The notes under the pieces: model-generated
Databases searched by the model: none
What the model was told of the DNA's origin: nothing
Seen by the model: the letters and a program-made list of their open reading frames with translations, nothing else
Program-made: the position numbers and the translations under genes
Shown here: positions 38,762 to 56,934 of the stretch, in pieces
How positions within the stretch are numbered: position 1 is the stretch's first letter
Layout of the letters: the number at the start of each line of letters is the position of its first letter
Source: Escherichia phage VerenaGrendelmeier_Bas101
Sequence record: PQ850631.1
DNA length: 64,000 nucleotides
Strand: one strand, 5' to 3'

Positions 38762-38840
38762 TTGTCCTTTGTGGGTGATATGAGAAGTATAATAGCTAAA
38801 TTATTTTACAGCAACAAGTCATTTCTATTTAGTACAGACG

Positions 38841-38868
38841 AAAAAAAGACCCACAACAAGTGTGGGTC
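38841..38868 (-). terminator. rho-independent terminator (minus strand)
   Basis: GACCCACA...TGTGGGTC stem; minus-strand transcript followed by seven U. Confidence 0.65.
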
Positions 38869-38896
38869 AATTACCGCTATATAACCGTCCTACAGG

Positions 38897-39742
38897 TTAT
38901 TCCGCTTGATCACCGTCTTCAGCATCGTCGTTGGATTCAACATCGACAAACTCGATGTGGCCCATCTCTTCCAGCTTGCTCAGGTAGGAGCGAACGGAAG
39001 CGCCAAACAGTTGATCTTTAACTTTCTCGCCCAGCTCATCGATAGACTGTGCCACGCCAACTTCGCCTTCTTTGATCGCAGCCAGAACGCGTCCACGGGT
39101 GGAATGCTCTTGCGGCTGGCTCAGGCCATTACCAGTGTAGATGAAGTGAGTAGCTTTTGCACGACGCTGACCGTTTGCCTTTTTAGCAGCCTTACGTTCT
39201 GCGATGGCTTTGCGACGTTCTTCAGCTTCTTTCTTACGCTGTTCTTTCTGCTGTTCTGCAGCTTCTTTCGCCGCAATCTTAGCAGCTTCACGCTCTGCCT
39301 TGCGTTTCGCTTTAGCTTCTTCTTTGGCCTTCTCTTTTTCGGCCTTCGCTGCAGCACGGGCTTGATCACGCTCTGCTTTCTTAGCAGCAGCTTGTTCAGC
39401 TTTCAGGCGCTTGGCTTCTTCTTTAGCCTTTGCCTTTTCGATTTCTTTCGCTGCTTTAGCGGCTTCACGCTCTGCTTTCTTAGCAGCGGCCTTTTCTGCA
39501 CGCTCTTTAGCTTTCTTGGCTGCTTCTTCAGCACGCTTCTGAGCCTTCTCATCAGCAGCCTGCTTGCGTTTCAGCGCAGCTTCTTCACGCTTGGCTTGTT
39601 TTTCCTGCTCACGCTTCTGGCGTTTTTCTTCGGCTTCTTTCTTTTTAGCCAGGCGTTTTTCTTCAGCCACGCGACGACGTTCTGCTGCAGCTGCTTGTTT
39701 TTCTTCTTTAGATAATACTTTGATTGCTTCGGCCATGTTCAC
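38897..39742 (-). CDS. Lys/Glu/Ala-rich protein (long predicted single alpha-helix) with small C-terminal globular domain
   Basis: About 200 aa of KEEKQAAAAERRRVAEEKRLAKKKEAEEKR-type low complexity, then an ~80-aa C-terminal domain. Confidence 0.5.
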   Translation of the reverse strand: MNMAEAIKVLSKEEKQAAAAERRRVAEEKRLAKKKEAEEKRQKREQEKQAKREEAALKRKQAADEKAQKRAEEAAKKAKERAEKAAAKKAEREAAKAAKEIEKAKAKEEAKRLKAEQAAAKKAERDQARAAAKAEKEKAKEEAKAKRKAEREAAKIAAKEAAEQQKEQRKKEAEERRKAIAERKAAKKANGQRRAKATHFIYTGNGLSQPQEHSTRGRVLAAIKEGEVGVAQSIDELGEKVKDQLFGASVRSYLSKLEEMGHIEFVDVESNDDAEDGDQAE

Positions 39743-39895
39743 AGTCCTTAAATAAATTAGTTTATTTTATATTCCCCGTTTGGGATAACTTAATTATGCC
39801 TTCAGTCGCCGCCAGTAGCAACTAAAAACTATGGCGGCGATGCCACTTTAATTAAACTGATTTTCAGTTTTATTTTTCGTAAATTTACGTCAACA

Positions 39896-41080
39896 TTAAC
39901 GCGCTTTCAAATCACGGTACACGGTCAGATTCTTCTTAGCACGGGTGATTGCGGTGTACATCATCTTGGAGTACGGAACGCCGCGCAAGATTTCTTCCAG
40001 CACGCACACATTATCCCACTCGCTGCCTTGCGATTTGTGCACCGTGATGACATAGCCATAGTCCATCCCGCCAACAGCGCGTTGCGCTTCTTTGCGCACT
40101 TCCTGATCAGTAGAGAAGGAAAGAGGATTAATCTTAACCTTTATATCTTTACCATCAGTCAATGAACGCAAGTTGACATACATTATTTCATTCGACTCAT
40201 CTTCATCCCTTTCAAAGTCCGGCACTGGCTCATAGCCAATAACAATCCCTTGCTCGCCATTACAGAATCCTGGCCCGTGTTGGTTGAAGGTGCAAATAAC
40301 CTTCTCGCCGATTCCTGGCATTGGTGTTATACGTCCGCTCACTTGCCGTAATAATGAATTCCATTTATCTTTGGTGCTATTATAGGAGCAAATAATTTGA
40401 TCATCTTCGCCCATGAATTTCTTCAATGCAGTAACGCGCGGCGATTCTGCCAATACTTTGACGTCATCGTATTCACGCGGAGGAAGGCGGTTGCCTTGGC
40501 GAACGAAGAAGGAAGCACGGATGATGTTGGACTCTTTCCCTTGCCGCATGATTTCTGTTAACAGTACGTCAACGGCTTCTTCGGTAAAGTAGGCGGCGGC
40601 TTTTACCGGAGGGACTTGTCCAATGTCGCCTAATGCCAGCACAGGGATGCGGTGATCAAGAAGGCGCTCTGTGTCCCACTCGCCAACCATTGAAGCTTCA
40701 TCAAGGACTACAAGATGCGGCTTTTCGTCCAGCTTTGACTTTCTCGAGAATATTGGCTCATTGTCGTCATTTACGCCGCGCACGTTATAGATGAACTGGT
40801 GAAGGGTCTTAGCGCCACGACAACCTTTTTGCTTTAATCTGCTTGCAGCCTTTCCGGTCGGCGCAATATAGATAGCGCCGTACTCACCGACACAACGGCG
40901 CACAATCTCGCGAGCAATAGAGGTTTTACCAGTCCCTGCATAGCCAGCGATGAAAAACACGCGCTTCGTCGTTTTACCGTCTTGCAATCGCTTGTACCAT
41001 GCAACGGCCTTTTCGATGGCGTCAATTTGTTGCGCGTTAAACTGAATCACTGGCTCATCATTAAATTCTGGAATGTTCAT
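39896..41080 (-). CDS. SF1 helicase, Dda/RecD-like
   Basis: Walker A GYAGTGKTS, Walker B VVLDEASMV, C-terminal VITVHKSQGSEWDNV and YTAITRAKKNL. Confidence 0.7.
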   Translation of the reverse strand: MNIPEFNDEPVIQFNAQQIDAIEKAVAWYKRLQDGKTTKRVFFIAGYAGTGKTSIAREIVRRCVGEYGAIYIAPTGKAASRLKQKGCRGAKTLHQFIYNVRGVNDDNEPIFSRKSKLDEKPHLVVLDEASMVGEWDTERLLDHRIPVLALGDIGQVPPVKAAAYFTEEAVDVLLTEIMRQGKESNIIRASFFVRQGNRLPPREYDDVKVLAESPRVTALKKFMGEDDQIICSYNSTKDKWNSLLRQVSGRITPMPGIGEKVICTFNQHGPGFCNGEQGIVIGYEPVPDFERDEDESNEIMYVNLRSLTDGKDIKVKINPLSFSTDQEVRKEAQRAVGGMDYGYVITVHKSQGSEWDNVCVLEEILRGVPYSKMMYTAITRAKKNLTVYRDLKAR

Positions 41081-41406
41081 TATAACTCCACTACGCTGTC
41101 AAGGTCCAGATATACTGGAATAAAATGGCAATCTTCTTTTCGTTCAAACATCTCACCATCAACATGGCTGAAGAAAACAGTTGTATTTGGTATCTTCCAT
41201 CCTTTCTCGTCGCGCACTAAGTACGCCATGGATTCAACAGGGATGTGCAGCGATACCGGATTTGCGGCAAAAATAAATTTGATTCTGTCTGGTTGACCCA
41301 GGAATCGCATGATTGTTAGGCTTGAATTCAATCTTGTATTAAGGAAGGACTCAACGATTCCGACGTGTGTTGCACGTTCGCGTTGCTTCGTCTCTTTTTC
41401 GTTCAT
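41080..41406 (-). CDS. hypothetical protein
   Basis: First gene of the leftward block; ATGA overlap with helicase gene. Confidence 0.4.
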   Translation of the reverse strand: MNEKETKQRERATHVGIVESFLNTRLNSSLTIMRFLGQPDRIKFIFAANPVSLHIPVESMAYLVRDEKGWKIPNTTVFFSHVDGEMFERKEDCHFIPVYLDLDSVVEL

Positions 41407-41444
41407 TTCAGGCGACCTTTGTTAGTGCGGAAATATTTTCTGAT

Positions 41445-41473
41445 AGTATAATTGCAGATATAGTATAAAGCAA
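41445..41473 (-). promoter_or_regulatory. sigma70-like promoter for the leftward block (TTGCTT-17-TATACT on minus strand)
   Basis: -10 complement at 41445-41450, -35 complement at 41468-41473. Confidence 0.4.
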
Positions 41474-41509
41474 AGTAAATCGAAATTGTGAACTAAATGG
41501 TAAATATTG

Positions 41510-41537
41510 TTGACTTTGTATCACTCAATATTATACT
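41510..41537 (+). promoter_or_regulatory. sigma70-like promoter for the rightward early block (TTGACT-16-TATACT)
   Basis: -35 at 41510-41515, -10 at 41532-41537, about 30 nt upstream of the primase gene. Confidence 0.45.
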
Positions 41538-41566
41538 GCAGGTATTGATCACCGAAGGAAAGAAAG

Positions 41567-42649
41567 ATGGCTAGTTTAAGAGAAGAAGCAAAAATAATTG
41601 AAGAGTTTTTAACAGAACTCCAAAGAGGCATCCCAGAAGATGAGCGCGTCATGACGGTGTTTGCTCCTGAAGCAACGGTACAGACCGACGAGCGCGGCAA
41701 GAAGATCAACAGCAGCTTCTGGCCTAAGCCTTGGAAGTTGGGCAAGCCGCTCATGCAGCACCAAAACGGCTATGCTTGCATCAGTTCAATGCGTAAGTCT
41801 CCCAACCCAAAGACGGGTGAGATGCGATACTGGCGTACAGAGTCGGCCTTTGGTCACGGCATGGCGATGATGGTCGACGACATCGGTCACGGTAAAGGGT
41901 CCAAAGGCGATTTAGATTTGGAGTTCTTTTTCGAGCGACTGAAGCCGACTGTCATAGTCGAGACGTCACCGAACAACCACCAGCTTTGGTACTTCTTTAA
42001 AGAACCGATTGACCATCTTATTCAGTTCAAAGCATTTCTTGGGTCTTTCGTTAACATGGTACTCAAGAAGGGCGGCGACAACACGATTAAAGACGTAACG
42101 CGCGTTGGCCGTGTTCCTGGGTGCATCAACAACAAGCGTGTGACTCACGACGGCCCCTATAAATATGTCGATGAGAACGGCGACCCGTTCCGCTGCCGAC
42201 TTGTCCATGCAGACTACTCCTTGCGCTACACCATCGAAGACATCTGTCAGGCATTCGGCTTTCACGTCGTTATGCCGCAAAAGCGTGAGATTCAAATTGA
42301 CGTAGATGAATACAAGTACGATGCTGTTTGGTATAAAATAGCCCAGCAGATTCTAGCGCGCAACAAGATGGGTGAAGGGTCTGATGGCGACGTCATCGAG
42401 AATATGTCAGGCAAGTGCCGCATAATCTGCCCTTGGGGTGAAGAACACACCAACGGCGACCCGTATGGCGCTTACTTTCGCGGCCCTATCCCTGGTGCAG
42501 AACATGAGTTTGTGTTCGGTTGCGCCCACGACTGTCACCGGAAAGGGGAAGGCAAGAAAGGTTGGACTGCTTTTGTTGAAGCAATCGTCATGCCTTATAT
42601 TGAGAATCAACTTGACATGATAAATCGTCGTGCAGGTGGCATAAAATAG
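41567..42649 (+). CDS. AEP-family primase-polymerase with C-terminal zinc-binding motif
   Basis: AEP motifs MMVDDIG, SPNNHQLWYFF and RVGRVPGCINNK (R.PG..N.K); C-terminal CPWGEEH...CAHDCH. Confidence 0.55.
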   Translation: MASLREEAKIIEEFLTELQRGIPEDERVMTVFAPEATVQTDERGKKINSSFWPKPWKLGKPLMQHQNGYACISSMRKSPNPKTGEMRYWRTESAFGHGMAMMVDDIGHGKGSKGDLDLEFFFERLKPTVIVETSPNNHQLWYFFKEPIDHLIQFKAFLGSFVNMVLKKGGDNTIKDVTRVGRVPGCINNKRVTHDGPYKYVDENGDPFRCRLVHADYSLRYTIEDICQAFGFHVVMPQKREIQIDVDEYKYDAVWYKIAQQILARNKMGEGSDGDVIENMSGKCRIICPWGEEHTNGDPYGAYFRGPIPGAEHEFVFGCAHDCHRKGEGKKGWTAFVEAIVMPYIENQLDMINRRAGGIK

Positions 42650-43430: not shown

Positions 43431-43535
43431 ATGAAAGCCGTAAAGAAATACACATTAATCATTTCCCTTGTTATCATCCTGGGGCTATTATATGTATTGG
43501 ATATGGCATATTATTTGGCAGGGGTGAGTAAATGA
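43431..43535 (+). CDS. very small membrane peptide (34 aa)
   Basis: MKAVKKYTLIISLVIILGLLYVLDMAYYLAGVSK; ATGA overlap with next gene. Confidence 0.25.
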   Translation: MKAVKKYTLIISLVIILGLLYVLDMAYYLAGVSK

Positions 43536-43822
43536 ATATTGTAATTCTTTATGGTGAAAATATCAGCGATGACGACATCGAAGTTGCCGTTGATGTTTAC
43601 GGTATCGATGAGGTGAAACGTGTTGAAGAAATTAGTGGCGCAAATCTCAATGAGATTGTCAAAGAAGCTGGTTGCCCTTCGGAAGAGATTCTGGTGGTTA
43701 CTAACGATGACCTGTCTTCTATGGATCATTTGCGCCGCATCTTCACCGATTGCCAATACCTTCATGCTGTTCAATCAGTAAACAAATTGAGAAAGGCATA
43801 CGCCAACCAATTTCCTTGCTGA
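43532..43822 (+). CDS. hypothetical protein
   Basis: ATG start. Confidence 0.4.
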   Translation: MNIVILYGENISDDDIEVAVDVYGIDEVKRVEEISGANLNEIVKEAGCPSEEILVVTNDDLSSMDHLRRIFTDCQYLHAVQSVNKLRKAYANQFPC

Positions 43823-43872
43823 TAGTTCACCAGTTATATTGCTTTAAATTGAGTTTTACTATATTAATATAC

Positions 43873-43897
43873 AACGCCAGATTTCTGGCGTTTATTT
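43873..43897 (+). terminator. rho-independent terminator
   Basis: CGCCAG...CTGGCG stem followed by TTTATTT. Confidence 0.6.
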
Positions 43898-43958
43898 ACC
43901 GCACCCTGAAAGGATATATCCATGCAACAATATAACAAAGCCGTATCAGGAGGATTAA

Positions 43959-45629
43959 ATGTCAATTAATAATGACAATCTTCCAGAGGATACAGGTGAT
44001 GAATTTGGTGCAATCTTTGACGAAATTCAAGATGCAGGCGTTTCGGAAGAAATGCAGGCAGCAGAGCAGCAAGGCACCAGAGCTAAAATCAGCCTTCAAC
44101 ACAAAGCCGTTGAAAAAGATTCAGAGCGCATGGAGTGTTACGGTGAAGAAGACTTGGTTGAAAGAGCACGCTTGCTCGCCTCACTTCAGGTAATCAAGTT
44201 CCCTCACTACAAGCCGACCAAAGATGACTTCGTTCTACAGGCAGACCGGACGAGTGACATGAACCGCTATGCGGTGTTCGACGCGTTGTTTGATAAGGGA
44301 AGTGGCATTGTTCCATTCCCTCACAAAGATACTTTTCGTGGGCGCTTAGTCGACCATCGCGGCGAAACATTCACTGACCGTACCTTGGAAGTCACAGAGA
44401 TAGTTGCCGCTGTCGACGCAGCAGGGCTGTCTAACCCAAACTCACGTCAGGTTGCTCAATCCTATAAGGAATGGGCCATGCGTTATCAGCGCGACGACCT
44501 GATGGACTTCTTCTACAAGAAGCTGCCTGAATGGGACGGTACTGCGCGCATCGAGAAATACCTTATCGAGCTATTCCGACCGTTCGATACAGAGTTAAAC
44601 CGACAAATCGGTGTGTATTTTTGGCTATCGCTCTACAACCGCCTGACCAACCCTGGCTGTCAAGCGCCAATCTCCATCGCGCTCATCGGCGGCCAGAACG
44701 CAGGGAAGAGTTATTTTAGCAAGCTGCTTTGCGAAGCTATTATGAACGACCGCCACGCAACACCGATTCCGTTGAACTTAGCCGCGCAAAACTTCAACCC
44801 GTTCTTGCGAGCTATTACGGGTCGCTCGATTATCGCGAACGTCGGCGAGATGACAGGCTTTAAAAAGGCCGACATCGAAAACATGAAAGCATTCCTGACT
44901 AAGACGGAAGATGACCTGGACTTCAAATTTGAAGATACGCAGGTTAAACCACGCCAGTGGATTGCTATCATGGACGGCAACGAATACGCAGGCATGCAGC
45001 GTGATGACACGGGCAACCGTCGTGTGTATCCTATCTTTGTTGGCCAACTCGCCGACAAGGACGGGCAACCGAACTGGTCGAAAGATTTCCAAGCTGACCT
45101 TTCCACTTTGAAAGAAGACGTTTGGCAGCTTATGGCTGAGTGCGCTGCGTGGATGGAGAAGCACGGCGAAGCAGGCTATAACGCGTTTGTTGGTGAAACA
45201 TCTCGCATGCTTACTGAGTTCAGTAAAAACGAGATGGAACGCGCTCGCGGCGTTATCCGTGATGAGATGGTTGACAACGACCTTGTTGAAGTCGTCATCA
45301 CCGCGCCTTATGATCGACATCACAGCGGACGCTGGCACATCACCAGTGGTGCTATTGCTATGGGATTCAGAGCGAAGTGCGGCAAGTCGCCTTTCTCTCG
45401 TACCCTTGCGCCGCACATGTCGAAGCTTGGTTTTGAGCCTGCAACCTATCGCAACCAGCGCGGTTACTTTACGCCGCTGATTAAGAATGAAGCAGGGGAA
45501 TACATTTCTGATTTGATGACCATCTTAGCGTATCTTATCCGCGATGAGTCTGACCCTGAAGATATTGAATTCTTGAAGAAGGTTATCGAGCGTAAACGTT
45601 CTTTGGGAAGAGATAAGGATGAATTCTGA
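43959..45629 (+). CDS. P-loop NTPase, VirE/D5-like primase-associated helicase
   Basis: 556 aa; Walker A IALIGGQNAGKSY; AGGAGGA RBS. Confidence 0.5.
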   Translation: MSINNDNLPEDTGDEFGAIFDEIQDAGVSEEMQAAEQQGTRAKISLQHKAVEKDSERMECYGEEDLVERARLLASLQVIKFPHYKPTKDDFVLQADRTSDMNRYAVFDALFDKGSGIVPFPHKDTFRGRLVDHRGETFTDRTLEVTEIVAAVDAAGLSNPNSRQVAQSYKEWAMRYQRDDLMDFFYKKLPEWDGTARIEKYLIELFRPFDTELNRQIGVYFWLSLYNRLTNPGCQAPISIALIGGQNAGKSYFSKLLCEAIMNDRHATPIPLNLAAQNFNPFLRAITGRSIIANVGEMTGFKKADIENMKAFLTKTEDDLDFKFEDTQVKPRQWIAIMDGNEYAGMQRDDTGNRRVYPIFVGQLADKDGQPNWSKDFQADLSTLKEDVWQLMAECAAWMEKHGEAGYNAFVGETSRMLTEFSKNEMERARGVIRDEMVDNDLVEVVITAPYDRHHSGRWHITSGAIAMGFRAKCGKSPFSRTLAPHMSKLGFEPATYRNQRGYFTPLIKNEAGEYISDLMTILAYLIRDESDPEDIEFLKKVIERKRSLGRDKDEF

Positions 45630-52651: not shown

Positions 52652-53135
52652 CAAAACGCAACGCATCAATTTTGAAGGTAAAGAATACGAAATAGACGCT
52701 CGTGCAAGATTCGTCGCGCGTGACTCTAACGGAACCATCTGGGCGTACGAGGAAAAACCTGTATGGGAAGAGCGGCGCGGCCAGTGGTTGTATGAAACAT
52801 GCGGTTCAGTTTGGTGCGAGCGCATCGACCAAGTGAAGACGTTTGAAAAGAACAGGCCATCATCACGTGATTCATTGAAGGAAGTCGAATCAATCAAAAT
52901 CAAAGACCCAGCGCCGTCGACCGATAAACAATACGCAGTCGGGCAACGTGACATCGAGCAACTCGACGAGGGCGGCTATTATACGCGCCACATCCATGCC
53001 ATGACTCAAGAAGGACTTTACAGCAAGTCGGACATCGCCGCTGAACTGGCCCATCGTGACTTACAAATCGACCTTCTCAAGATAGAAGTGCAGAACTTAC
53101 GAAACACCCTGTTAAATACTTGGAGCTTAAAATGA
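52644..53135 (+). CDS. hypothetical protein (shares a domain with 48850-49167)
   Basis: See 48850-49167. Confidence 0.45.
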   Translation: MTNKTQRINFEGKEYEIDARARFVARDSNGTIWAYEEKPVWEERRGQWLYETCGSVWCERIDQVKTFEKNRPSSRDSLKEVESIKIKDPAPSTDKQYAVGQRDIEQLDEGGYYTRHIHAMTQEGLYSKSDIAAELAHRDLQIDLLKIEVQNLRNTLLNTWSLK

Positions 53136-53551
53136 TACAGCGTTACGATGTTGATTATTGCACGCAGCACGCTTGCACTTGTGAAGTTGTAAAGGATGAT
53201 GAAGGCGGCTATGTTGAATATGAGGACTATGAATCACTACTCAAGCTTAATGAGTCGCTAACAAAAGAGATTGAGCAATACCGCGAGCGCATCAAAGTCG
53301 CTGAAGATATTATCAAGCTTTTTAGCGAGGCTGTTGAGAAATACAAGGAGCGCAACGTACCGATTAAGGAGGAAGCGTGGACCGTGTGGCGTGGTGGCGA
53401 TAATCCGGTGCCTGGTGAGATTGTTGAATACAAGCTGCGCAATGGAGGTGATAAAGTTCTGTCGAGACTTTCTGATCATCTTCACTGGGGTCATATAGGC
53501 GCGTTAAAGGGCAGCGACATCATTGCTTATCGGGTCGTTAAGGAGGGGTGA
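53132..53551 (+). CDS. hypothetical protein (C-terminal domain shared with 51469-51978)
   Basis: ATGA overlap; Cys-rich N-terminus CTQHACTC. Confidence 0.45.
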   Translation: MIQRYDVDYCTQHACTCEVVKDDEGGYVEYEDYESLLKLNESLTKEIEQYRERIKVAEDIIKLFSEAVEKYKERNVPIKEEAWTVWRGGDNPVPGEIVEYKLRNGGDKVLSRLSDHLHWGHIGALKGSDIIAYRVVKEG

Positions 53552-54326: not shown

Positions 54327-54615
54327 GCGTATAATGACGTAAGATTTGGACCTATCCGTAGTTCACTCCACACACTTCTATGGTGCGCCGCGACTGGGTT
54401 CAGTGGTACATCTTACGGATGATACGGATGATACGCGTCGCCGCTATACTTTATACAACTTTGAAAAAAACAATTAACTCCATTTTGAATTAATTTAAAT
54501 TAATTTTTTTCTACATCCTCATACTTATACTAAACTTATATTTATACGTATTATCCGTAAGATATAAGTAAAAACAAAGACTTGCGGCAATACGGATGAT
54601 ACGTCACGATACGCT
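54327..54615. repeat. second iteron-like region homologous to 1891-2160
   Basis: Shared blocks GCGTATAATGACGTA, ATCTTACGGATGATACG...GCCGC, AT-rich AATTAATTTAAA tract, TATCCGTA copies. Confidence 0.65.
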
Positions 54616-56766: not shown

Positions 56767-56906
56767 AATAAACTCCTAGTTGGGAGAGGCGTTAACGACC
56801 TATTCGTTAACTCATCCCGTCCCGATATGAGTACATTATAATATAGTGTAGAAAAAAGTAAAGCACTTTTTCGATAAAAATGCGATAAATTATTTTATCT
56901 TTTTTC

Positions 56907-56934
56907 TTTACTTCTTCGTACACTCGCGTATACT
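56907..56934 (+). promoter_or_regulatory. sigma70-like promoter TTTACT-16-TATACT with conserved GTACACT spacer and TTGTTTATATCGAGA leader
   Basis: Near-identical architecture to 57305-57333. Confidence 0.45.

What the first reader, a model, noticed from the sequence alone, without database searches (positions are those of the whole stretch)
41407..41566. Divergent promoter hub separating the leftward replication block from the rightward early block
Within 160 bp there are back-to-back sigma70-like promoters (minus strand TTGCTT-17-TATACT; plus strand TTGACT-16-TATACT). This is the switch point of the genome and a likely site for regulator or host-factor binding; several TATA(G/A)T hexamers overlap.
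Basis: seen in the sequence. Interest (0 to 1): 0.35.

Follow-up and report, generated by a model that had tools for sequence, protein, structure and literature searches.

The report
Divergent host-type promoters in a coliphage
This 160-base gap between two oppositely oriented groups of DNA-replication genes in an E. coli phage (genus Wifcevirus) very probably holds ordinary host-type promoters firing in both directions, as already measured at the matching spot of the related Pseudomonas phage 14-1, so it is real but not surprising.

Summary
They lie in a 160-bp, 32% GC gap between a leftward 108-aa gene plus Dda-like helicase and a rightward RepB'-type primase. The window is a Wifcevirus, an E. 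coli myovirus.

Consensus matching alone is not significant, but four other lines of evidence support real sigma70-type promoters:
- **Genus conservation:** the gap is 98.8-100% identical in all 28 Wifcevirus records, while the flanking genes vary at 8-13% of sites.
- **Distant footprint:** two Pantoea phages keep only the leftward -35 block, the -10 block and an 11-mer.
- **Independent matrix:** a matrix built from mapped promoters of Pseudomonas phage 14-1 ranks the two sites 10th and about 30th of 127,936 positions.
- **Measured start sites in a relative:** the matching gap in 14-1 has three mapped start sites, two of them reporter-validated in E. coli.

The leftward -10 sits in a symmetric 8-mer (AGTATAAT) that recurs across five phage groups, which suggests an old bidirectional promoter.

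This is not "the" switch point, the rightward block starts with replication genes, and nothing shows regulator binding. The finding is an ordinary new member of a known kind.

The parts
41407..41566 (.). Whole divergent intergenic hub (160 bp, 31.9% GC). It lies between the ATG of the leftward 108-aa gene and the ATG of the rightward RepB'-type primase gene.
   Evidence: It is 98.8-100% identical in 28 Wifcevirus records. In 7 genomes it has 2/160 variable sites against 8-13% in flanking CDS.
41468..41473 (-). P_L -35 hexamer TTGCTT, inside the invariant block CTTTGCTTTAT.
   Evidence: The block ATAAAGCAAAG is invariant in Pantoea phages Kyle and PA1.
41445..41450 (-). P_L -10 hexamer TATACT, 17 nt from the -35. 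The predicted start is near 41438 (an A on the minus strand), giving a 5'UTR of about 32 nt with AAGG about 9 nt before the ATG.
   Evidence: ATAGTATA is invariant in Kyle and PA1, always 38 bp from the leftward ATG. The site ranks 30-35 of 127,936 with the 14-1-derived matrix. The start-site position is inferred, not measured.
41445..41452 (.). Symmetric 8-bp core AGTATAAT. It reads as the minus-strand -10 TATACT (41450..41445) overlapping by 4 bp a plus-strand perfect TATAAT (41447-41452). The plus-strand reading is a candidate weak rightward promoter, P_R2, with a poor -35 (TAGTGC, 18-nt spacer) and a predicted start near 41459.
   Evidence: The same type of core lies 38-49 bp from the leftward ATG in Kyle, PA1, Serratia Spe5P4 and WR01, Salmonella PCSE1 and Pseudomonas 14-1. 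In 14-1 both directions have mapped start sites 24 bp apart. P_R2 ranks only 235 of 127,936, so this part is inferred.
41460..41468 (.). Second exact copy of ATAGTATAA, 17 bp from the first. It gives a second minus-strand TATACT (41467..41462), with TTCACA 19 nt upstream at 41492..41487.
   Evidence: 2 copies in the window against 0.29 expected. The copy is not conserved in Kyle or PA1 and scores poorly in the matrix. It is probably not an independent promoter.
41474..41509 (.). A+T-rich 36-bp spacer between the two -35 hexamers. It contains (G/C)TAAAT three times and could act as an UP-element-like region for both promoters.
   Evidence: Only one polymorphic site occurs in the genus (41493). 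The UP-element role is inferred from position and composition only.
41510..41537 (+). P_R1: TTGACT (41510-41515), 16-nt spacer, TATACT (41532-41537). The predicted start is near A41544, giving a 5'UTR of about 23 nt with AAGGA at 41555-41559, 7 nt before the primase ATG.
   Evidence: 10 of 12. It ranks 10 of 127,936 with the 14-1-derived matrix and its hexamers are invariant across the genus. It is the positional analogue of the reporter-validated 14-1 P038.
41421..41431 (.). Invariant 11-mer GTTAGTGCGGA, which is UCCGCACUAAC at about +8 to +18 of the leftward mRNA. Its role is unknown. It could be a 5'UTR element, an operator, or the upstream region of the plus-strand reading of the core.
   Evidence: It is identical in Kyle and PA1, although the adjacent protein is only 35% identical. 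It is unique in the window.
41080..41406 (-). First gene of the leftward operon: a 108-aa protein of unknown function, followed by a Dda-like helicase at 39896-41080.
41567..42649 (+). First gene of the rightward operon: a RepB'-type DNA primase (PF16793, E 4.5e-36).

Best explanation
The gap holds host sigma70-type promoters that point away from each other and start the two halves of the phage's replication module.

**Leftward promoter, P_L.** TTGCTT-17-TATACT, with a start near 41438. It transcribes the 108-aa gene, the Dda-like helicase and genes further left.

**Rightward promoter, P_R1.** TTGACT-16-TATACT, with a start near 41544. It transcribes the RepB'-type primase, the VapE/D5-type helicase and the small genes beyond.

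**Geometry.** The two -35 hexamers are 36 bp apart and the predicted starts are about 106 bp apart. Two RNA polymerases could therefore sit back to back on the A+T-rich spacer.

**Symmetric core.** The P_L -10 lies in a symmetric core, AGTATAAT, that also reads as TATAAT on the other strand. In relatives with short gaps, this single core sits midway between the two start codons and is probably the only promoter for both directions. That would make it an ancestral bidirectional promoter. Wifcevirus, like Pbunavirus 14-1, has added a stronger downstream rightward promoter.

**Shown:** the motifs, their conservation, their membership in a genome-wide promoter family, and the mapped start sites and E. 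coli reporter activity at the syntenic hub of phage 14-1.

**Inferred:** the start sites and activity in this phage, and any activity of the plus-strand reading of the core.
For: 1. **Identity of the window.** It is 98% identical to Wifcevirus genomes. The primase is 64% identical to Pbunavirus primases.
2. **Synteny.** A leftward helicase block and a rightward primase block flank a short gap in Wifcevirus, Kylevirus, Myosmarvirus, Salmonella PCSE1, BcepF1 and Pbunavirus.
3. **Measured start sites in 14-1.** The syntenic gap (53032-53199) has ONT-cappable-seq start sites P036 (53073, minus), P037 (53097, plus) and P038 (53163, plus). All three are classed sigma70. P036 and P038 drive a GFP reporter in E. 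coli and in P. aeruginosa.
4. **Conservation in the genus.** The gap has 2/160 variable sites against 8-13% in the adjacent CDS, Fisher p = 1.6e-6. It is 98.8-100% identical in 28 records.
5. **Phylogenetic footprint.** In Pantoea phages Kyle and PA1 only three blocks are invariant: the 11-mer, ATAGTATA (the -10) and ATAAAGCAAAG (the -35). The spacer sequence varies and is 17-18 nt long. The neighbouring protein is only 35% identical.
6. **Promoter family.** The pattern TTKMYT-16/17-TATAMT occurs 14 times in the window against 0.29 in shuffles. The pattern was derived post hoc. Every site has an ATG ORF with a Shine-Dalgarno-like sequence 20-68 nt downstream on the same strand.
7. **Independent matrix.** A matrix built from 22 mapped 14-1 promoters, leaving out the hub homologues, ranks P_R1 10th and P_L 30-35th of 127,936 positions. 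By my own Poisson estimate, two top-35 sites in one 160-bp gap has a chance of about 0.004.
8. **Symmetric core.** A symmetric 8-mer lies 38-49 bp from the leftward ATG in seven phages of five groups.
Against: - There are no transcription data for any Wifcevirus.
- The consensus matches alone are not significant, and P_L matches the E. coli consensus at only 8 of 12 positions.
- The near-total invariance of the gap within the genus means the hexamers cannot be distinguished from the rest of the gap. None of the six polymorphic sites hits a hexamer, but that has a chance probability of about 0.38.
- Other large gaps are equally conserved, so conservation is not specific to this function.
- P_R1 has no sequence counterpart outside the genus.
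- The plus-strand reading of the core has a poor -35 and ranks only 235th.
Confidence: 0.8

Rival explanations
1. The gap is, or also is, the phage's origin of replication. On this reading an A+T-rich unwinding region next to the primase gene is opened or primed by transcription from the divergent promoters, with RepB'-type primase starting DNA synthesis there.
For: - The gap is 32% GC.
- It lies directly upstream of a RepB'-type primase, inside the replication module.
- The local minimum of cumulative G-C lies at 41227, about 180 bp away.
- The gap is extremely conserved.
- A Pbunavirus paper proposes origins from GC-skew minima in the replication region (PMC12390725).
Against: - Every turning point of the skew in the window coincides with a change of gene orientation: 23911 is convergent, 41227 is divergent, and the third is at 54349. 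The skew is therefore not independent evidence.
- There are no iterons. The only direct repeats are the 9-mer present twice and short chance-level pairs.
- There is no significant hairpin or ssi-like structure. The DNA fold has z = -1.87, and 7 of 200 shuffles do as well.
- Relatives have gaps of only 79-92 bp that are fully used by promoter blocks and 5'UTRs.
- Other gaps are equally conserved.
Confidence: 0.1
2. The gap is mainly a regulatory switch. A phage-encoded or host DNA-binding protein would bind the invariant 11-mer (41421-41431) or the repeated ATAGTATAA to time or balance leftward against rightward transcription.
For: - The 11-mer is identical in three genera while the neighbouring protein is 35% identical.
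- The 11-mer lies at about +8 to +18 of P_L, a usual operator position.
- The whole 160 bp is invariant, not just the hexamers.
- ATAGTATAA is an exact direct repeat, with 2 copies against 0.29 expected.
Against: - No DNA-binding protein is identified nearby. The 108-aa protein has no Pfam or PHROG hit.
- The 11-mer is neither palindromic nor repeated, and it occurs once in the window.
- The second ATAGTATAA copy is absent in Kyle and PA1.
- By eye I saw no good CRP, IHF or DnaA site. This was a check by eye, not a tool result.
- The homologous 14-1 promoters work in uninfected E. coli without phage factors.
Confidence: 0.15
3. The hexamers are chance matches in A+T-rich DNA, and the real promoters for both operons lie elsewhere.
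For: Shuffles of the gap give an equal or better plus-strand match in 6.6% of cases and an equal or better minus-strand match in 86%. The region scan found fewer sites than expected.
Against: - Kyle and PA1 conserve exactly the -35 and -10 blocks.
- The two sites rank 10th and 30-35th with an independently derived matrix.
- 14 sites of the same flavour each sit in front of a gene.
- Start sites are mapped at the syntenic hub of 14-1.
Confidence: 0.05
4. The gap encodes a small protein. This is the 38-aa ORF at 41408-41524 (minus strand, GTG start) that some GenBank records annotate as a hypothetical protein.
For: The ORF is annotated in Bas98, Bas99, Bas100 and kaset. It is intact in all Wifcevirus because the gap is invariant.
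Against: - It has no PHROG hit.
- It starts at GTG with no spaced Shine-Dalgarno sequence.
- It would need a promoter inside P_R1.
- Kyle and PA1 have gaps of only 79-81 bp, with no room for an equivalent ORF.
- Most annotators do not call it.
Confidence: 0.02

Closest known systems
The P036/P037/P038 promoter hub of Pseudomonas phage 14-1 (Pbunavirus), mapped by ONT-cappable-seq (Putzeys et al., microLife 2024, PMC10914365; Table S3 in bioRxiv 10.1101/2023.10.13.562163)
   Same: - It occupies the same genomic position, between the small gene next to the Dda-like helicase (leftward) and the block containing the RepB'-type primase (rightward).
- The gap is of similar size, 168 against 160 bp.
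- The layout is the same: a leftward promoter whose -10 lies in a symmetric 8-mer (AGTATACT against AGTATAAT), a rightward reading of that core, and a second rightward promoter 66-85 bp further on.
- The -10 flavour is the same (TATACT), and the -35 is T-rich (cTTTACTTc against TTGCTTT and TTGACTTT).
   Different: - There is no alignable sequence outside the motifs.
- The first leftward proteins are not detectably similar.
- 14-1 has three extra genes between the hub and the primase.
- The host is Pseudomonas.
- Start sites are measured there and only predicted here.
Symmetric bidirectional bacterial promoters (Warman et al., Nat Microbiol 2021, as summarised in PMC12825309)
   Same: -10 elements on opposite strands overlap within one short pseudo-symmetric A+T-rich sequence. 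Divergent starts are expected about 21-24 bp apart, close to the commonly observed 23-bp class. One polymerase-binding event excludes the other.
   Different: - Here the plus-strand reading has a poor -35 and is unproven.
- The main rightward promoter (P_R1) is a separate, non-overlapping site about 85 bp away.
- The hub as a whole is therefore a mix of a bidirectional core and a classical back-to-back pair.
Classical back-to-back divergent sigma70 promoter regions of phages and bacteria, for example other divergent pairs in 14-1 such as P001/P002 (starts 115 bp apart)
   Same: There are two non-overlapping promoters with an A+T-rich spacer between the -35 elements. Each is followed by a short 5'UTR and a Shine-Dalgarno sequence. 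The window itself has a second such hub at 56767-56933.
   Different: Nothing essential differs. No regulator site is identified here.

Membership tests
Bacterial sigma70 (housekeeping) promoter | A -10 hexamer close to TATAAT, with A at position 2 and T at position 6 | tested here: met
   TATACT (5/6) is present for both P_L and P_R1.
Bacterial sigma70 (housekeeping) promoter | A -35 hexamer close to TTGACA, placed 16-18 bp upstream of the -10 | tested here: met
   P_R1 has TTGACT (5/6) with a 16-nt spacer. P_L has TTGCTT (3/6, weak) with a 17-nt spacer. The P_L -35 block is invariant in Kyle and PA1.
Bacterial sigma70 (housekeeping) promoter | Match stronger than expected by chance | tested here: inconclusive
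   The match is not significant by consensus count. It is significant with the independent 14-1-derived matrix, with ranks 10 and 30-35 of 127,936.
Bacterial sigma70 (housekeeping) promoter | Transcription start about 7 nt downstream of the -10, and activity with sigma70 holoenzyme | not testable with these tools
   This needs 5'-end mapping or in vitro transcription. It has been measured only for the 14-1 counterparts.
Symmetric bidirectional promoter (Warman type) | -10 elements on opposite strands overlapping in one pseudo-symmetric sequence | tested here: met
   AGTATAAT at 41445-41452 reads as minus-strand TATACT and plus-strand TATAAT with a 4-bp overlap. The same type of core is present in seven phages.
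Symmetric bidirectional promoter (Warman type) | Divergent start sites about 10, 18 or 23 bp apart, on either side of the shared -10 | not testable with these tools
   The predicted separation here is about 21 bp. The measured separation in 14-1 is 24 bp (53073 minus and 53097 plus). The distance classes come from PMC12825309.
Orthologue of the 14-1 P036-P038 hub | Same flanking genes and orientation | tested here: met
   The Dda-like helicase lies leftward. The RepB'-type primase (64% identical) and a second primase/helicase lie rightward.
Orthologue of the 14-1 P036-P038 hub | Alignable intergenic sequence | tested here: not met
   A sensitive blastn of the gap finds only the 28 Wifcevirus records. 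Only the motifs and the layout are shared.
Replication origin | A+T-rich unwinding region | tested here: met
   The gap is 31.9% GC against 46.2% for the window. This is equally expected for promoters.
Replication origin | Iterons or initiator-binding repeats, or ssi-type hairpins for a RepB'-type primase | tested here: not met
   The only repeat is a 9-mer present twice, and there is no repeat family. The DNA fold has z = -1.87 and no dominant hairpin.
Replication origin | A strand-composition switch independent of transcription | tested here: inconclusive
   The skew minimum at 41227 coincides with the change of gene orientation, as do the other turning points.

The most novel reading that the evidence does not exclude
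The hub would be more than a promoter region. It would be the transcription-activated origin of replication of this phage group. Divergent transcription from the conserved symmetric core would open the A+T-rich gap next to the RepB'-type primase gene, and the invariant 11-mer (41421-41431) would be the site where primase or a loader acts. That would locate the so far unmapped origin of Wifcevirus, Kylevirus and Pbunavirus phages.
Probability: 0.1. Interest if true: 0.45.

Novelty: new member of a known kind. Interest (0 to 1): 0.15.

Why it matters
The result gives a concrete, testable promoter map for the replication module of Wifcevirus phages. These phages are used against E. coli O157 and have recently joined the BASEL collection, yet none of the 28 GenBank records annotates a promoter here.

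It also shows that promoter flavour and hub layout are shared with Pbunavirus phages of Pseudomonas across a large evolutionary distance. Promoters of this family could serve as compact constitutive parts, including bidirectional ones. Beyond that, the hub is a routine regulatory region and opens no long-standing question.

Tried and rejected
- **Consensus counting as proof.** Rejected, because shuffles reproduce the matches.
- **Known RNA families.** Rfam finds no match in 41200-41800 at E up to 1.
- **Structured 5'UTRs or a DNA hairpin.** The RNA folds have z = -0.36 and +0.16 and the DNA fold has z = -1.87, so none is convincing.
- **The 38-aa ORF annotated in some records.** Rejected as spurious.
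- **The second minus-strand TATACT (41467..41462) as an independent promoter.** It is not conserved in Kyle or PA1 and scores poorly.
- **GC skew as evidence for an origin.** The skew is confounded with gene orientation.
- **Hexamer-specific purifying selection within the genus.** The test is uninformative, with only six polymorphic sites.
- **The 14-nt inverted repeat 41383-41396 / 41578-41591 as a regulatory pairing.** It is not conserved in Kyle, and one arm is polymorphic without compensation.
- **CRP, IHF and DnaA sites.** I checked these by eye only and saw nothing convincing.
- **Supplementary tables.** They are not held for the PMC version of the 14-1 paper. I obtained them from the bioRxiv version.
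- **Large protein-database and structure tools.** I did not use them, because the function of the 108-aa neighbour is tangential to the finding.

Full report
**What the window is.** The 1.4 kb around the finding is 98% identical to Escherichia phages AV128 and vB_EcoM_WFC and 94% identical to Mansfield, ECML-117, FEC19 and others. All are myoviruses of the genus Wifcevirus with genomes of 66-72 kb. The encoded primase is 64% identical to that of Pbunavirus phages of Pseudomonas and 50-71% identical to those of Pantoea, Serratia, Salmonella, Burkholderia and Xanthomonas phages.

**Checking the observation.** The interval 41407-41566 is exactly the gap between two start codons: that of a leftward 108-aa ORF (41080-41406) and that of a rightward 360-aa ORF (41567-42649). 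The quoted motifs are present at these coordinates:
- minus strand: TTGCTT at 41473..41468, a 17-nt spacer, then TATACT at 41450..41445;
- plus strand: TTGACT at 41510-41515, a 16-nt spacer, then TATACT at 41532-41537.

The gap is 31.9% GC against 46.2% for the window. Several TATA-type hexamers overlap, partly because ATAGTATAA occurs twice, 17 bp apart.

As consensus matches these sites are not beyond chance. The plus-strand 10/12 match appears in 6.6% of dinucleotide shuffles of the gap and the minus-strand 8/12 match in 86%. The tool's regional scan found 2 sites where 3.7 were expected.

**Gene context.** To the left lie the 108-aa protein (no family hit), a Dda/RecD-like helicase, two proteins of unknown function and, further on, a DNA polymerase III alpha-type polymerase. 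To the right lie a RepB'-type primase (PF16793, E 4.5e-36), small ORFs and a VapE/D5-type helicase-primase. Both arms therefore begin with replication genes.

The window also has several strand switches: plus to about 23.8 kb, minus to 41.4 kb, plus to about 55.3 kb, then short alternating blocks. This gap is one divergent junction among several.

**Conservation within the genus.** In an alignment of seven Wifcevirus genomes the gap has 2 variable sites in 160. The helicase has 11.6% variable sites, the 108-aa gene 8.3% and the primase 12.8% (Fisher p = 1.6e-6). All 28 GenBank records carry the gap at 98.8-100% identity, and 18 are identical.

The six polymorphic positions found (41414, 41440, 41493, 41519, 41541, 41554) all miss the hexamers. 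With so few changes this is not significant, at roughly 0.38 by my estimate. Other large gaps nearby (38762-38896, 39743-39895, 43823-43958) are equally conserved. Strong constraint on non-coding DNA is therefore general in this genus, not special to this gap.

**Footprint at greater distance.** Pantoea phages Kyle (L008) and PA1 (L013) have the same gene order but a gap of only 81 and 79 bp. Aligned with the left half of the window's gap, three blocks are invariant:
- GTTAGTGCGGA;
- ATAGTATA, the minus-strand -10;
- ATAAAGCAAAG, the minus-strand -35, which reads CTTTGCTTTAT.

The spacer between the last two blocks differs in sequence and is 17 or 18 nt long. The adjacent protein is only 35% identical. 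This is the pattern expected of a promoter, and it supports P_L much better than its modest consensus score does.

**A promoter family in the genome.** Sites of the form TT(G/T)(A/C)(C/T)T, 16-17 nt, TATA(A/C)T occur 14 times in the window against 0.29 in shuffles. The pattern was derived after looking at the data. Each site is followed, 20-68 nt downstream on the same strand, by an ATG ORF with a Shine-Dalgarno-like sequence. Both hub promoters belong to this family.

For an unbiased test I built a hexamer matrix from 22 experimentally mapped sigma70-type promoters of Pseudomonas phage 14-1, leaving out the three at the homologous hub. Scanning both strands of the window, P_R1 ranks 10th and P_L 30th-35th of 127,936 positions. 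The top ranks are otherwise filled by the same intergenic family. By my Poisson estimate, two top-35 sites in one 160-bp gap has a probability of about 0.004.

**Direct evidence from a relative.** In phage 14-1 the helicase (gp68) and a small gene (gp69) point left, and gp70-gp73 (primase) point right, separated by a 168-bp gap at 53032-53199. ONT-cappable-seq mapped three start sites in that gap: P036 at 53073 (minus), P037 at 53097 (plus) and P038 at 53163 (plus). All are classed as sigma70. [quoted passage not shown]

The -10 elements of P036 and P037 share the palindrome AGTATACT. The 14-1 promoters use TATACT-type -10s and cTTTACTTc-type -35s, the same flavour as in the window.

**The symmetric core.** The window's P_L -10 lies in AGTATAAT (41445-41452). 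This reads TATACT on the minus strand and a perfect TATAAT on the plus strand, with a 4-bp overlap. A core of the same type, A(G/T)TATA(A/C/T)(A/T), lies 38-49 bp from the leftward start codon in Kyle, PA1, Serratia phages Spe5P4 and WR01, Salmonella phage PCSE1 and 14-1.

In the five phages with short gaps, the core sits about midway, 31-44 bp from the rightward start codon. Nothing else there looks like a promoter, so it probably serves both directions. This corresponds to the pseudo-symmetric bidirectional promoters described for bacteria, where divergent starts lie 10, 18 or 23 bp apart (PMC12825309). The measured 24 bp in 14-1 fits.

In the window and in 14-1 the right side of the gap is longer (114 and 111 bp). 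It carries an additional, stronger rightward promoter: P_R1 here and P038 there.

Whether the plus-strand reading of the core still fires in Wifcevirus is uncertain. Its -35 is poor and it ranks 235th in the matrix scan.

**Proposed mechanism.** Host RNA polymerase with sigma70 binds P_L and P_R1 without phage factors.
- P_L should start near 41438, giving a 5'UTR of about 32 nt with AAGG about 9 nt before the ATG.
- P_R1 should start near A41544, giving a 5'UTR of about 23 nt with AAGGA 7 nt before the primase ATG.

The -35 elements are 36 bp apart and the predicted starts about 106 bp apart. The two enzymes can therefore bind back to back on an A+T-rich spacer that may act as an UP-like element for both. 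The start positions and activities are inferences.

**Rivals.**
- *Origin of replication.* This is suggested by low GC, the adjacent primase gene and a local skew minimum at 41227. A Pbunavirus paper uses skew minima in this way. However, every skew turning point in the window coincides with a change of gene direction. There are no iterons and no significant hairpin. Relatives manage with gaps of about 80 bp. I give it about 0.1, as an additional role.
- *Regulatory switch.* This is possible because the 11-mer at 41421-41431 is unexplained and unique in the window. No binding protein or repeat supports it.
- *Chance.* This is unlikely given the footprint and the matrix ranks.
- *The 38-aa ORF.* Some records annotate it inside the gap, but it has no family hit and no counterpart in Kyle or PA1.
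- *A structured RNA.* No Rfam family matches, and neither 5'UTR is unusually structured.

**Verdict.** The finding is real and the main interpretation is right. It is a routine divergent promoter region whose counterpart in a related phage has already been mapped. The modestly new points are the conserved symmetric core across five phage groups, the shared promoter flavour between Wifcevirus and Pbunavirus, and the invariant 11-mer. Interest is low.

Noticed in passing
window 56767-56933: This is a second divergent promoter hub with the same design. The minus strand has TTTACT-16-TATAAT (56862..56835), whose -10 lies in a symmetric ATTATAAT core (56835-56842). The plus strand has TTTACT-16-TATACT (56907-56934). 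The two -35 elements are 44 bp apart, across an A+T-rich spacer.
   Followed up: partly
window 2212, 16577, 24676, 37764, 41473, 41510, 42651, 48789, 50042, 56862, 56907, 57305, 59933, 63585 (first base of the -35): This is a family of 14 sites of the form TT(G/T)(A/C)(C/T)T-16/17-TATA(A/C)T, usually followed by TT, against 0.29 expected. Each sits 20-68 nt upstream of an ATG ORF with a Shine-Dalgarno-like sequence. The flavour matches the mapped sigma70-type promoters of Pseudomonas phage 14-1.
   Followed up: partly
window 41421-41431: GTTAGTGCGGA is identical in Wifcevirus and in Pantoea phages Kyle and PA1, although the adjacent protein is only 35% identical. It occurs once in the window and lies at about +8 to +18 of the predicted leftward mRNA. 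Its role is unknown.
   Followed up: partly
window 41383-41396 and 41578-41591: A 14-nt inverted repeat (13 of 14 complementary) places nearly the same sequence, AAGAGA(C/A)GAAGCAA, at codons 4-8 of both divergent mRNAs, in different reading frames. It is not conserved in phage Kyle, and position 41392 is polymorphic without compensation, so it is probably chance.
   Followed up: partly
window 41408-41524 (minus strand): A 38-aa GTG-start ORF lies entirely inside the promoter region. It is annotated as a hypothetical protein in Bas98-100 and kaset. It has no PHROG hit and no counterpart in Kyle or PA1, so it is likely an over-call.
   Followed up: yes
window 38762-38896, 39743-39895, 43823-43958: These gaps vary at only 0.7-2.3% of sites among seven Wifcevirus genomes, against 5-21% for neighbouring genes. 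Gap 39743-39895 has a G+C-rich inverted repeat (CGCCGCCA at 39839..39832 and TGGCGGCG at 39814..39807, minus strand) overlapping a TTGCTA-17-CATAAT site. Gap 43823-43958 has a terminator-like hairpin, AACGCCAGATTTCTGGCGTTT.
   Followed up: no
window 41567-42649, 43532-43822, 43959-45629: The rightward arm carries three primase-related genes. They are a 360-aa RepB'-type primase (PF16793), a 96-aa protein that the Mansfield record annotates as similar to RSF1010 RepB (PDB 3H25), and a 556-aa VapE/D5-type protein. How the three divide the work is unclear.
   Followed up: no
window 38897-39742 (minus strand): This gene encodes a 281-aa protein that is extremely rich in Lys, Glu and Ala (phrog_4765, unknown function). 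Its composition creates a long spurious ORF on the opposite strand (38906-39715). In 14-1 a mapped start site of unclassified type (P033) has an upstream sequence of similar composition.
   Followed up: no
L012 (Xanthomonas phage FoX6) 4001-4072: The tblastn match to the primase starts about 70 nt upstream of the annotated start of gp76. The annotated gap of 63 bp is therefore probably coding, and the start codon there is probably mis-set.
   Followed up: no
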